DNA of 64,000 nucleotides from Escherichia coli O157:H7 (GTDB taxonomy: Bacteria > Pseudomonadota > Gammaproteobacteria > Enterobacterales > Enterobacteriaceae), in NCBI RefSeq assembly GCF_013167455.1, contig NZ_CP038328.1; one strand, given 5' to 3'. Position 1 is the stretch's first letter; the number at the start of each line of letters is the position of its first letter. Position numbers: made by a program. Below are positions 45,001-48,000 of this stretch, in pieces.

Positions 45001-48000
45001 GGACATATACATCAGGTTATCGATACCGTTCATATTCTGTTCGATAACCTGCGTCACCGTATCCTGCACGGTCTGCGCATCAGCGCCCGGATAGTTTGCT
45101 GAAACAGAAACCGCAGGCGGTGCAATGGTTGGATACTGAGCGACGGGCAATTGTAGGATCGCCAGTGCGCCCGCCATCATCAGAATAATGGCCAGCACCC
45201 ATGCAAATATCGGTCGTCGAATAAAAAAGTTTGCCATGTCAGATTACCTTACTTCGATGCAGTATCTGCGGGGGTATCGGTAGTGGCTTTAACCTGCTCT
45301 CCCGGACGCGCTTTTTGCAGGCCGCTGACAATGACTTGATCGCCAGATTTCAGACCTTCGCTAATCAACCATTTATCGCCAATCGCCTGACTGGCAACGA
45401 CAGGGCGCACTTCCACCTGACTTTTATCGTTAACAATCAGCACGGTTGCATCACCACGCGGTGTGCGGCTAACGCCTTGTTGCGGGATGAGAATGGCGTC
45501 AGGTTGGACGCCTTCATCAATCCGTGCACGCACAAACATACCCGGCAAAAGCGTATGTTGCGGGTTAGGGAAGACAGCACGTAGGGTTATGGAGCCGGTG
45601 CTTTCATCAACGGTCACATCGGAGAATTGCAGCGTACCTTTCAGGGGATAGGTTTGACCGTTTTCCATGACCAACTCTACGTTGCTGGTGGCGTTTTCCT
45701 TATGCAAATTTCCTTGCTCTACGGACTGCTTCAGCCTCATAAAATCGTTGCTGGATTGGGTCACATCAACATAGATAGGATCGAGCTGCTGGACAGTTGC
45801 CAGTTCAGTCGTTTGCCCATTAGTGACAAGAGCGCCTTCGGTCACAGTCGATTTGCCGATACGTCCGCTAATTGGCGCAGTCACTTTGGTATAAGCAAGA
45901 TTGATGCGAGCGCTTTCGACTGTGGCTTTTGCGGCAATCACGGCGGCATCGGCCTGGCGAGCATCAGCAATGGCCTGGTCGTACTCCTGCTGGCTGATGT
46001 ATTTCGTACCCACGAGCGGAACGTAACGTTTTACCGTCAAATGCGCGATGGCGGCGGCGGCTTCACTTTTCGCCAGTTCGCCTTTCGCGCTGTCATAATT
46101 TGCCTGATAGGTCGCGGGATCGATCTGGTACAGGGACTGGCCTGCTTGCACATCGCTGCCTTCAGTGAAATTGCGATTCAGTACGATCCCGCTAACCTGT
46201 GGGCGAACTTCGGCTATACGATAAGCATTGGTGCGGCCTGGTAATTCAGTCTTAACTTCTAACGGGGCCGTTTTTACAATATGAACGGTAACCTGCGGTT
46301 CACCGACGTGAGCTTTCTCTTCTCCCTTATCGTTACAACCGGCGATTAAAGCCGCGGAGATCAGAATAAAGGAGGGCAGGAGGAAAAACCTGGCATGTTT
46401 CGTCATTACTATTCCTCAAAAAACCAAAAGCGCGTTATTTACCCAAAAAGGCAACGCGTTAACTCGCAGAAAGAAAAATACAGTTCGCTATCCTACAAAT
46501 TATCATTCGTCGATGTAAGGAATAGTTATGAATACAGGCGTCTCAAGGCACATAAACACAAAAAAAGATTAATATTCTACTGTTTTATTTTGACGCGGGT
46601 TGAAAGAGGCAGAATTAAAAAATCGTAAATTGAAGTATATATTGATGTAGTGAATGTATCTTAAGTAAATAATATATATTATTTATTTAACGATTTATAG
46701 CAACTCAATGTTAGCCTCTCGTATAAATACACATTAGGTGATAGATTAACCTTCGCTATTTTCTCACTCTGTGTCGAAGATATTTATTTCCTGAATAATT
46801 AATCATGGCAAAAAGAACCAAAGCCGAAGCTCTGAAGACCCGGCAAGAACTGATTGAAACTGCCATCGCCCAGTTTGCGCAACATGGCGTAAGCAAGACG
46901 ACGCTCAACGACATTGCCGATGCCGCTAACGTTACGTGTGGCGCTATCTACTGGCACTTCGAGAACAAGACCCAACTGTTTAATGAGATGTGGTTGCAAC
47001 AGCCTTCATTGCGGGAGTTAATCCAGGAACACTTGACGGCTGGATTAGAGCATGACCCGTTTCAACAATTGCGTGAAAAATTGATTGTCGGCTTGCAATA
47101 TATTGCCAAAATTCCCCGCCAGCAGGCGTTGCTGAAAATCTTATATCACAAATGTGAATTTAATGATGAGATGCTGGCCGAGGGAGTGATACGCGAAAAG
47201 ATGGGCTTTAATCCGCAGACTCTCCGCGAAGTATTGCAGGCGTGTCAGCAACAAGGTTGTGTAGCAAATAACCTCGATTTAGATGTTGTGATGATTATTA
47301 TTGATGGTGCCTTCAGCGGAATTGTTCAAAACTGGTTAATGAATATGGCGGGTTATGATCTTTATAAACAAGCCCCCGCTCTGGTCGATAACGTATTAAG
47401 AATGTTCATGCCAGATGAAAACATAACGAAATTAATTCATCAAACGAATGAATTAAGTGTCATGTAAATTCACATTCTGTCCTGAAAATTCAGTTCGTCA
47501 CAGTTAACCAGTTTTAGTGGATTAACTGAGTTCATATTGCGGCATTTGTCTGTTTCTGTTGCCAGCAGTTCAATCCACTGCATCAGTAAAGTATCAAACA
47601 GAAAAACGAAGACAGCGAAAACGACGAGCCACCAATACTTGCGAATCATTACCTGAGCCTGTGCATGTTTAACCAAGTCTGGCAGGAAATATACACGAAA
47701 TGAATAATCTGCAAACCAGGCTTACACATCCTTTACTTTGTAATGAGATCGGGGTCAACTTCGCTTAACCGGCTTCGTTTTGACAGGTTGCCGGTCTTTC
47801 TTTTTTTCACTTTCGCCAGTTCTTCCGCAGAGTAATGCGACGCGACATCCAGCCGTCGAAGCCCCATTTTGATGTACTCGCTGTTGATCTCAATACCAAT
47901 GAATTTTCGTCCGCTGGCGATGGCTACGGCACCGGTAGTAAAGCTACCAGCAAACGGGTCGAGAACGATATCGCCTGGGTTGGAAGAGGCGAGAATAATG

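What the first reader, a model, noticed from the sequence alone, without database searches (positions are those of the whole stretch)
46667..46684. Perfect 18 bp AT palindrome in the divergent acrE-acrS intergenic region
AAATAATATATATTATTT (46667-46684) is an exact palindrome inside the roughly 400 bp AT-rich region between divergently transcribed acrEF and the TetR-family repressor gene acrS. It is a candidate operator for AcrS or another dimeric regulator, or a bend/melt-prone element. Because acrF is already disrupted in this genome, regulation here may be relaxed.
Basis: seen in the sequence. Interest (0 to 1): 0.3.

Follow-up and report, generated by a model that had tools for sequence, protein, structure and literature searches.

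The report
Incidental AT palindrome between acrE and acrS
The palindrome is real, but it is a recent and variable accident of sequence in the most AT-rich stretch between two efflux-pump genes, not a conserved repressor-binding site, so it is an ordinary feature.

Summary
The palindrome exists and is slightly longer than reported: a perfect 20 bp TAAATAATATATATTATTTA at 46666-46685. It lies in the 398 bp, 31% GC spacer between acrE (-) and acrS/envR (+). It is unusual locally (P about 0.002) but only marginal once the 64 kb scanned is allowed for (P = 0.065 for 20 bp, 0.22 for 18 bp).

It is not an AcrS operator. The experimentally defined EnvR/AcrS site is the 24 bp AcrR-type palindrome of the acrAB promoter, and nothing like it occurs in this spacer. 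The palindrome is broken by 2-3 uncompensated substitutions in roughly a quarter of complete E. coli genomes, including Nissle 1917 and the type strain, which have intact acrEF-acrS. It is absent from other Escherichia species, Citrobacter, Salmonella and Pseudocitrobacter. Other blocks of the spacer are invariant across those genera.

What is conserved here is composition. Every orthologous spacer has a TpA-rich zone of low duplex stability at about this position. The spacer is a published H-NS and RNA polymerase binding region, and a published in-silico -10 hexamer for acrE lies inside the palindrome.

Best reading: incidental symmetry produced by GC-to-AT drift within an H-NS-silenced, promoter-like AT core. 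It is unrelated to the acrF lesion. Interest is low.

The parts
46666..46685 (.). Perfect 20 bp palindrome TAAATAATATATATTATTTA (the reported 18 bp core is 46667-46684)
   Evidence: Local shuffle P(>=20) = 0.002; window-level P = 0.065.
46666..46690 (.). Longest A/T-only run of the window (25 nt), with 7 TpA steps in the 20 bp palindrome. It is the least stable duplex site of the 64 kb.
   Evidence: dG for 20 bp is -15.3 against a mean of -27.1 +/- 2.6 kcal/mol.
46671..46680 (.). Centre AATATATATT, which reads as the -10-like hexamer TATATT on both strands, overlapping by TA. Together with AATAAT, TAATAT and TATTAT, there are four -10-like hexamers per strand inside the palindrome.
   Evidence: Geometry compared with the bidirectional-promoter spacings of 18, 10 and 23 bp quoted in PMC12825309. 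No TSS data could be obtained.
46678..46708 (-). Published in-silico acrE promoter TTGAGT-19-AATAAT. Its -10 hexamer (46683 to 46678) lies in the right arm of the palindrome.
   Evidence: Shimada 2014, PMC3946193; located in the window. It was assigned by sequence within an RpoD-holoenzyme SELEX peak and has not been TSS-mapped.
46615..46643 (+). Predicted acrS/envR promoter TTAAAA-17-TATATT. Its TSS would be near 46650, which would put the palindrome in the 5' UTR.
   Evidence: scan. The same site is listed by Shimada 2014. Not TSS-mapped.
46684..46693 (-). Best match in the spacer to the H-NS high-affinity motif tCGATAAATT (TCGTTAAATA, 8/10). It abuts the right edge of the palindrome.
   Evidence: motif from PMC2094087. 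Motif matches are not enriched over shuffles.
46407..46804 (.). The acrE-acrS divergent spacer: 398 bp, 31% GC. Literature reports it as H-NS-bound and RNAP-holoenzyme-bound.
   Evidence: PMC3946193; PMC8894471 H-NS intervals flanking the centre.
45249..46406 (-). acrE (385 aa)
46805..47467 (+). acrS/envR (220 aa TetR-family repressor)

Best explanation
The 20 bp palindrome is an incidental, lineage-specific symmetry inside the most AT- and TpA-rich stretch of the acrE-acrS control region, which is also its least stable stretch. Nothing reads the dyad as a dyad. What matters, and what is conserved, is composition. This stretch is part of the AT-rich platform on which H-NS silences acrEF and acrS, and its run of -10-like hexamers on both strands is the kind of sequence that RNA polymerase sigma-70 holoenzyme binds and melts. 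The perfect symmetry arose in one part of the E. coli tree through a few GC-to-AT substitutions in an already AT-rich, 7-8/10 complementary sequence. Shown: the sequence, its polymorphism, its absence in other species, its dissimilarity to the EnvR operator, and its low duplex stability. Taken from the literature: H-NS and RNAP binding to the spacer, and H-NS repression of acrEF. Inferred: that the palindrome itself is contacted by H-NS or RNAP, and that the symmetry is selectively neutral.
For: (1) The palindrome is polymorphic within E. coli. It is perfect in 6 of 10 sampled alleles and broken by 2-3 substitutions in 4. The variable positions are 10, 12, 13 and 15. Their partners 11, 9, 8 and 6 are invariant, so there are no compensatory changes. 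Variability inside it (4/20 columns) is above the spacer mean (2.47/20).
(2) The broken alleles are common. The B2-type allele is 100% identical in Nissle 1917 and ATCC 11775 and >=99% identical in 899 genomes. The KE40-type allele is >=99% identical in 396 of 5230 genomes.
(3) Complementarity decays with phylogenetic distance: 10, then 8, then 7, then 6 to 3 pairs within Escherichia, and 2-4 in Citrobacter, Salmonella and Pseudocitrobacter. Other blocks of the same spacer are invariant across all 18 sequences.
(4) The outgroups and the B2 and KE40 alleles carry C or G where the perfect allele has T or A, so the perfect state is derived by GC-to-AT changes.
(5) Composition is conserved. All 18 orthologous spacers have their least stable 30-mer (dG -25 to -30, against a window mean of -41.4 kcal/mol) at -197 to -106 from the acrS ATG. 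Spacer length stays at 376-413 bp and GC at 30-35%.
(6) Shimada 2014 flags the spacer as binding both RpoD holoenzyme and H-NS in genomic SELEX and places a predicted acrE -10 inside the palindrome. acrE is classed as H-NS-bound and rises in a delta-hns strain (logFC 0.90). H-NS repression of acrEF and envR is reported.
(7) There is no resemblance to the known EnvR/AcrR operator.
Against: The local probability of such a palindrome is low (0.002), so pure chance is not a comfortable explanation on its own. The left arm TAAATAATA and the outer ATTTA are invariant within E. coli. The thresholded H-NS ChIP intervals of Forrest 2022 flank the central spacer but do not include it: 3412592-3413410 and 3413780-3413981, against the K-12 palindrome at 3413585-3413604. 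The same kind of gap appears around the proV start, although the proV coordinate used there is from my own recall. The palindrome is not a good match to the tCGATAAATT motif, and motif matches are not enriched in the spacer. No TSS or footprint data at base resolution could be retrieved.
Confidence: 0.62

Rival explanations
1. The palindrome is the core of a real bidirectional or cryptic sigma-70 promoter. Its symmetric -10-like hexamers let RNA polymerase bind in either orientation and fire towards acrE or acrS once H-NS is displaced. In this reading the symmetry is functionally relevant, although it evolved recently.
For: There are four -10-like hexamers on each strand. TATATT/TATATT overlap by TA, which predicts divergent TSSs about 23 bp apart, and AATAAT/AATAAT predicts about 9 bp. 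Warman et al. report 18, 10 and 23 bp as the common spacings at pseudo-symmetrical bidirectional promoters. Shimada 2014 places the acrE -10 (AATAAT) in the palindrome, within an RpoD-holoenzyme SELEX peak. The site is the easiest to melt in 64 kb.
Against: The candidate -35 elements are weak, at most 4/6. The Shimada assignment is in silico. The blocks conserved across genera that look like the acrE promoter (CTTACA-18-TAGGAT and the putative marbox) lie 100-190 bp closer to acrE. The element is broken or absent in many strains and species with intact genes. No TSS data could be obtained.
Confidence: 0.2
2. The palindrome is an operator for AcrS/EnvR or for another dimeric regulator.
For: It has perfect dyad symmetry of operator-like length and sits in a divergent regulator-pump spacer. 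An older source lists acrEF as repressed by AcrS (quoted in PMC2453137).
Against: The known EnvR/AcrR operator is unrelated in sequence: 9/24 at the palindrome, and the best match in the spacer is at chance level. EnvR is described as predominantly a repressor of acrAB, not acrEF. There are no compensatory changes. The palindrome is broken in at least about 25% of E. coli genomes and absent in other species that keep acrS at 62-94% identity.
Confidence: 0.05
3. The palindrome works structurally. It extrudes as a cruciform, acts as the stress-induced duplex-destabilisation site of the spacer, or forms an AU hairpin in an acrS 5' UTR, and so couples expression to supercoiling.
For: It is the least stable duplex in the window. 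The hairpin is more stable than shuffles as DNA (-5.3 kcal/mol, z = -3.3). The hairpin appears in the MFE and centroid RNA folds if transcription starts near 46650.
Against: The hairpin is weak and made only of A and T. The RNA fold of the putative 5' UTR is not better than shuffles (z = -1.45). The symmetry needed for a cruciform or hairpin is not conserved, whereas low stability is. That supports melting by composition rather than a hairpin or cruciform.
Confidence: 0.08

Closest known systems
AcrR/EnvR (TetR-family) operator of the acrAB promoter, TACATACATTTGTGAATGTATGTA
   Same: Both are palindromes of about 20-24 bp located in a divergent regulator-efflux pump spacer.
   Different: The sequences are unrelated (9/24). 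This one is made only of A and T, is not conserved, and has no evidence of protein binding. EnvR is reported to act mainly on acrAB.
H-NS-silenced AT-rich promoter regions, that is, constitutive promoters masked by H-NS (Shimada 2014) and promoter islands (PMC3661553)
   Same: It is an AT/TpA-rich tract with many -10-like hexamers. The spacer binds RNAP holoenzyme and H-NS in SELEX, and the genes are silent in the laboratory and de-repressed without H-NS.
   Different: The spacer is not in the published promoter-island list. The palindrome itself is a poor match to the tCGATAAATT motif. The ChIP-derived intervals flank it rather than cover it.
Pseudo-symmetrical bidirectional promoters (Warman et al. 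2021 and 2026)
   Same: Overlapping -10-like hexamers occur on opposite strands with a geometry close to the reported 23 bp and 10 bp classes, between divergent genes.
   Different: No divergent TSS pair has been shown here, the -35 elements are weak, and the element is absent in many strains.

Membership tests
TetR-family (AcrR/EnvR-type) operator | Dyad symmetry of about 15-30 bp | tested here: met
   20 bp perfect palindrome.
TetR-family (AcrR/EnvR-type) operator | Sequence similarity to the experimentally defined EnvR/AcrR site | tested here: not met
   9/24 at the palindrome. The best match in the spacer is 14/24, which equals the median of 2000 shuffles.
TetR-family (AcrR/EnvR-type) operator | Conservation, or compensatory change, wherever the regulator is conserved | tested here: not met
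   Broken without compensation in common E. coli alleles, and absent in 14 other species or clades that keep acrS.
TetR-family (AcrR/EnvR-type) operator | Specific binding by the purified regulator | not testable with these tools
   Needs EMSA or a footprint. The literature reports EnvR binding only at the acrAB promoter.
H-NS high-affinity nucleation site (Lang et al. 2007) | Close match to tCGATAAATT with a central TpA step | tested here: inconclusive
   Only one 7/10 match overlaps the palindrome's right arm (46680-46689). An 8/10 match abuts it at 46684-46693. There is no enrichment over shuffles. TpA density is very high, at 7 per 20 bp.
H-NS high-affinity nucleation site (Lang et al. 2007) | H-NS occupancy at the site | tested here: inconclusive
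   The spacer is flagged HNS by genomic SELEX. The ChIP-derived intervals flank the palindrome but do not include it, and a similar gap appears around the proV start.
Bidirectional (pseudo-symmetrical) sigma-70 promoter | -10 elements on opposite strands in the 18, 10 or 23 bp configuration | tested here: met
   The TATATT/TATATT pair gives about 23 bp and the AATAAT/AATAAT pair about 9 bp (spacings).
Bidirectional (pseudo-symmetrical) sigma-70 promoter | A mapped pair of divergent TSSs | not testable with these tools
   The stored TSS supplements are cut before this locus.
Cruciform-forming inverted repeat | A perfect inverted repeat with a hairpin stable enough to extrude | tested here: inconclusive
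   It is a perfect repeat, but the hairpin is only -5.3 kcal/mol. Extrusion cannot be tested here.

The most novel reading that the evidence does not exclude
The perfect palindrome is a recently evolved bidirectional promoter core, normally masked by H-NS. Under this reading the perfect versus broken polymorphism (phylogroups such as K-12 and O157 versus B2) would cause strain-level differences in how readily acrEF and acrS are switched on when H-NS silencing is relieved. That would be an example of promoter birth by GC-to-AT drift at a clinically relevant efflux locus.
Probability: 0.12. Interest if true: 0.4.

Novelty: already known. Interest (0 to 1): 0.12.

Why it matters
It matters little as an operator candidate, because the evidence argues against one. 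The useful outcome is negative. AcrS autoregulation or acrEF control should not be assumed to act through this dyad, and the regulatory elements conserved across genera lie elsewhere in the spacer. If the minority reading were true, the perfect/broken polymorphism could contribute to strain differences in how easily the cryptic AcrEF pump is de-silenced. That bears on efflux-mediated resistance when AcrAB is lost or inhibited.

Tried and rejected
(1) AcrR/EnvR operator search in the spacer: nothing above chance. The adjacent GTGAATGTAT (46650-46659) is a 10/10 match to part of the operator, but it has no inverted partner, so it is only a half-site.
(2) H-NS motif scoring: no enrichment.
(3) Marbox consensus scan: uninformative, with 128 hits against 129 expected, and the conserved GGCAC block was not among them at <=3 mismatches. 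A 2008 paper had nevertheless predicted that block as a marbox using a different consensus.
(4) Direct TSS evidence: the supplements of PMC8894471 and PMC4782308 are truncated before 3.41 Mb. Hirakawa 2008, Kobayashi 2001, Nishino 2009 and Warman 2021 are not held.
(5) Promoter-island membership: the spacer is not listed.
(6) RNA hairpin in a putative acrS 5' UTR: not better than shuffles.
(7) Link with acrF disruption: rejected, because K-12 has an intact acrF and the same palindrome, while Nissle has an intact acrF and a broken palindrome.
(8) An exact count of palindrome states in all 5230 genomes was not possible. The AT-only core would be masked by BLAST's low-complexity filter, so frequencies are inferred from whole-spacer haplotype identity.

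Full report
OBSERVATION. The reported 18-mer AAATAATATATATTATTT is at 46667-46684 and is a perfect palindrome. The perfect symmetry extends one pair further on each side, giving TAAATAATATATATTATTTA at 46666-46685. With one mismatch it reaches 30 bp (46661-46690) in this allele. It is the longest perfect palindrome in the window and lies in the window's longest A/T-only run (25 nt). acrE is at 45249-46406 (-) and acrS/envR at 46805-47467 (+), separated by a 398 bp spacer of 31% GC. acrF is a pseudogene in this genome, whose closest matches are strain 2017C-4109 and O157:H7.

IS IT MORE THAN CHANCE? Locally, yes. Dinucleotide-preserving shuffles of the spacer give P(>=18 bp) = 0.006 and P(>=20 bp) = 0.002. 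When every 398 bp block is shuffled separately so that local composition is kept, a palindrome of >=18 bp appears somewhere in 22% of trials and one of >=20 bp in 6.5%. In a two-letter A/T run each pair is complementary half the time, so long AT palindromes come cheaply.

CONSERVATION WITHIN E. COLI. The spacer is present in 5230 of 5426 complete genomes at 92.7-100% identity. In an alignment of ten alleles spanning that range, the palindrome is perfect in six (window, K-12, Z1322HEC0005, UPEC-245U, 2003-3014, ET776). It is broken in four: TAAATAATAAATGTTATTTA, TAAATAATAAACGTTATTTA, and TAAATAATACATATCATTTA twice. The variable positions are 10, 12, 13 and 15. Their symmetry partners never change, so there is not a single compensatory substitution, and the 20-mer is more variable than the spacer average (4/20 against 2.47/20 variable columns).

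The broken alleles are not rare. The B2-type spacer is 100% identical in Nissle 1917 and in the E. coli type strain ATCC 11775, and >=99% identical in 899 genomes. The KE40-type spacer is >=99% identical in 396 genomes. About a quarter or more of complete genomes therefore lack the perfect palindrome. This figure is inferred from haplotype identity, not read base by base. Nissle 1917 has intact acrF (3105 nt), acrE and acrS. K-12 has an intact acrF and the same perfect palindrome as the window. The palindrome is thus neither required where the locus is intact nor connected with the acrF lesion.

CONSERVATION ACROSS SPECIES. A scan of species-representative genomes with AcrS recovered orthologous loci from cryptic Escherichia clades, E. 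whittamii, E. albertii, Citrobacter, Salmonella enterica subsp. arizonae and diarizonae, and Pseudocitrobacter. All keep a spacer of 376-413 bp and 30-35% GC, but none has the palindrome. At the homologous position the number of complementary pairs falls steadily with distance. It is 10 in the window and K-12, 8 in B2, 7 in the KE40 type and clade MOD1, 6 to 3 in other Escherichia, and 2-4 in other genera. The outgroups and the B2 and KE40 alleles carry C or G where the perfect allele has T or A. The perfect state is therefore derived by GC-to-AT substitutions in a sequence that was already AT-rich and partly symmetric (the polarity is an inference).

Other parts of the spacer, by contrast, are invariant in all 18 sequences: TATCCTACAAAT (46489-46500), ATGTAAG-AATA-TTAT (46513-46529), A-GGCAC--AAA (46545-46556) and TGAAT (46651-46655). 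Purifying selection is visible in this spacer, but not on the palindrome.

COMPARISON WITH THE KNOWN EnvR/AcrS SITE. EnvR binds the 24 bp AcrR-type palindrome in the acrAB promoter, and mutating that palindrome abolishes binding. EnvR is described as predominantly a repressor of acrAB rather than acrEF (PMC9780535). I confirmed TACATACATTTGTGAATGTATGTA in the K-12 acrR-acrA spacer. The 24-mer centred on the AT palindrome matches it at 9/24. The best 24-mer anywhere in the acrE-acrS spacer matches at 14/24, which is the median of shuffled spacers. The operator hypothesis therefore fails on sequence and on conservation. Only in vitro binding remains untested.

WHAT THE REGION IS. Several reports describe the locus as silenced by H-NS. 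H-NS inactivation raises AcrEF, IS insertions upstream activate it, and envR is thought to be silent in Salmonella for the same reason. Shimada et al. 2014 list the envR-acrE spacer as binding both RpoD holoenzyme and H-NS in genomic SELEX. They assign two promoters in silico. One is TTAAAA-17-TATATT for envR, the same site as my scan at 46615-46643. The other is TTGAGT-19-AATAAT for acrE, which I located at 46708 to 46678 on the - strand. Its -10 hexamer is the right arm of the palindrome.

The palindrome carries four -10-like hexamers on each strand, all with weak -35 partners. Its centre AATATATATT is TATATT on both strands overlapping by TA. That corresponds to the roughly 23 bp class of pseudo-symmetrical bidirectional promoters, for which spacings of 18, 10 and 23 bp are reported as common (PMC12825309). 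It has 7 TpA steps in 20 bp, against 2.4 for the spacer and 0.94 for the window. It is the least stable duplex in the 64 kb at 20, 30, 50 and 100 bp scales. It is not a good match to the H-NS motif tCGATAAATT, although an 8/10 match abuts it, and such matches are not enriched in the spacer.

In Forrest et al. 2022 acrE is classed as H-NS-bound and rises modestly in a delta-hns strain (logFC 0.90). The thresholded H-NS intervals cover the acrS body plus yhdU (window 46860-47678) and the acrE 5' end plus the proximal spacer (46289-46490), but not the centre of the spacer. A similar gap appears around the proV start, whose coordinate I took from my own recall, so I do not read the gap as absence of H-NS.

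COMPOSITION, NOT SYMMETRY, IS CONSERVED. In all 18 orthologous spacers the least stable 30-mer (dG -25 to -30 kcal/mol, against a window mean of -41.4) lies between -197 and -106 from the acrS start. This holds whatever the sequence and whether or not it is symmetric. That is what an H-NS platform or easily melted promoter zone would predict. A dyad-reading protein would not predict it.

MECHANISM. The most likely reading (about 0.6) is as follows. The palindrome is an accident of GC-to-AT drift in the AT/TpA core of an H-NS-silenced divergent control region. That core contributes through its composition, by supporting H-NS binding and spreading and by offering promoter-like, easily melted DNA that RNAP can bind. 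The symmetry itself has no function.

The rivals are a real bidirectional or cryptic promoter core (about 0.2), a structural role such as a cruciform, a supercoil sink or an RNA hairpin (about 0.08), and an operator for AcrS or another dimer (about 0.05). The hairpin is weak as DNA (-5.3 kcal/mol). As RNA, the putative 5' UTR folds no better than shuffles (z = -1.45).

WHAT COULD NOT BE DONE. Base-resolution TSS data for the spacer could not be retrieved, because the stored supplements are truncated. Four primary papers are not held. Palindrome states were read directly in 10 E. coli alleles and 14 other species and extrapolated to the collection by haplotype identity.

VERDICT. The operator interpretation is not supported. 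The melt-prone interpretation is supported as a compositional property. The feature is ordinary: a non-conserved palindrome inside a known H-NS and RNAP binding AT-rich spacer. Interest is low.

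Noticed in passing
window 43324-43376 (- strand), within acrF 42088-45237: The acrF lesion is not a point nonsense mutation. Eight bp of the K-12 sequence (AAAACGCC) are replaced by 53 bp (CTCCGCAACCCCATGTTTTCACATAACTGTTGCGTTGACCAATTGAATCTACA) carrying an in-frame TAA at 43351-43353. The 53-mer occurs in 3538 E. coli genomes, at up to 23 places per genome, on chromosomes and plasmids, and sometimes under transposase annotations. It looks like the terminal remnant of an insertion sequence; from memory it resembles an IS30 end, which I did not verify.
   Followed up: partly
window 46545-46564: AAGGCACATAAACACAAAAA was predicted in 2008 (PMC2453137) to be a backward-orientation marbox for acrEF. 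In my 18-sequence cross-genus alignment its core (A-GGCAC--AAA) is invariant, which is phylogenetic-footprint support that the paper did not have. A simple consensus scan was uninformative.
   Followed up: partly
window 46490-46519 (- strand): Two hexamers that are invariant across all genera read on the acrE strand as CTTACA-18 bp-TAGGAT. This is a weak sigma-70 promoter (8/12) that would start transcription near 46483, about 77 nt before the acrE ATG and downstream of the putative marbox. It is a better-conserved candidate for the physiological acrE promoter than the published in-silico one inside the palindrome. This is inference only.
   Followed up: partly
window 46650-46659: GTGAATGTAT, immediately left of the palindrome, is a 10/10 match to part of the AcrR/EnvR operator, and its TGAAT core is invariant across genera. 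It has no inverted partner, so it is only a half-site. It lies at the predicted envR TSS. Its function is unknown.
   Followed up: partly
window 46716-46745: TCTCGTATAAATACACATTAGGTGATAGATT is largely conserved in Escherichia and partly in Citrobacter and Salmonella. It contains a TATAAA(T) -10-like element. If that is the acrS promoter, the palindrome would sit at about -49 to -68, a position typical of an UP element.
   Followed up: no
window 46632-46653 (alignment A1 columns 226-247): This is a hypervariable segment of the spacer among E. coli alleles, with up to 9 variable columns per 20, just left of the conserved GTGAATGTAT. A second variable zone lies at columns 191-221.
   Followed up: no
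L011 (E. coli 035152, NZ_CP101705.1) 2288-3061: In this blood isolate an IS1 element sits 76 bp upstream of acrS. acrE, acrF, yhdV and all but the last 61 bp of the spacer, including the palindrome, are deleted, along with part of the neighbouring amino-acid ABC transporter gene.
   Followed up: partly
window about 47180 (+) and about 47407 (-), inside acrS: Forrest et al. 2022 list two delta-hns-induced intragenic TSSs inside envR at U00096.3 3413090(-) and 3412863(+), with logFC 2.2 and 3.1. They are typical of spurious initiation in H-NS-bound AT-rich coding DNA (coordinates converted with window = 3460270 - genome position).
   Followed up: no
window 28827-28844 and 8882-8897: These are the other long perfect palindromes in the window: CTATCGCAGCTGCGATAG (18 bp, mixed composition, so less expected by chance than the AT one) and TACGAAAATTTTCGTA (16 bp).
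   Followed up: no
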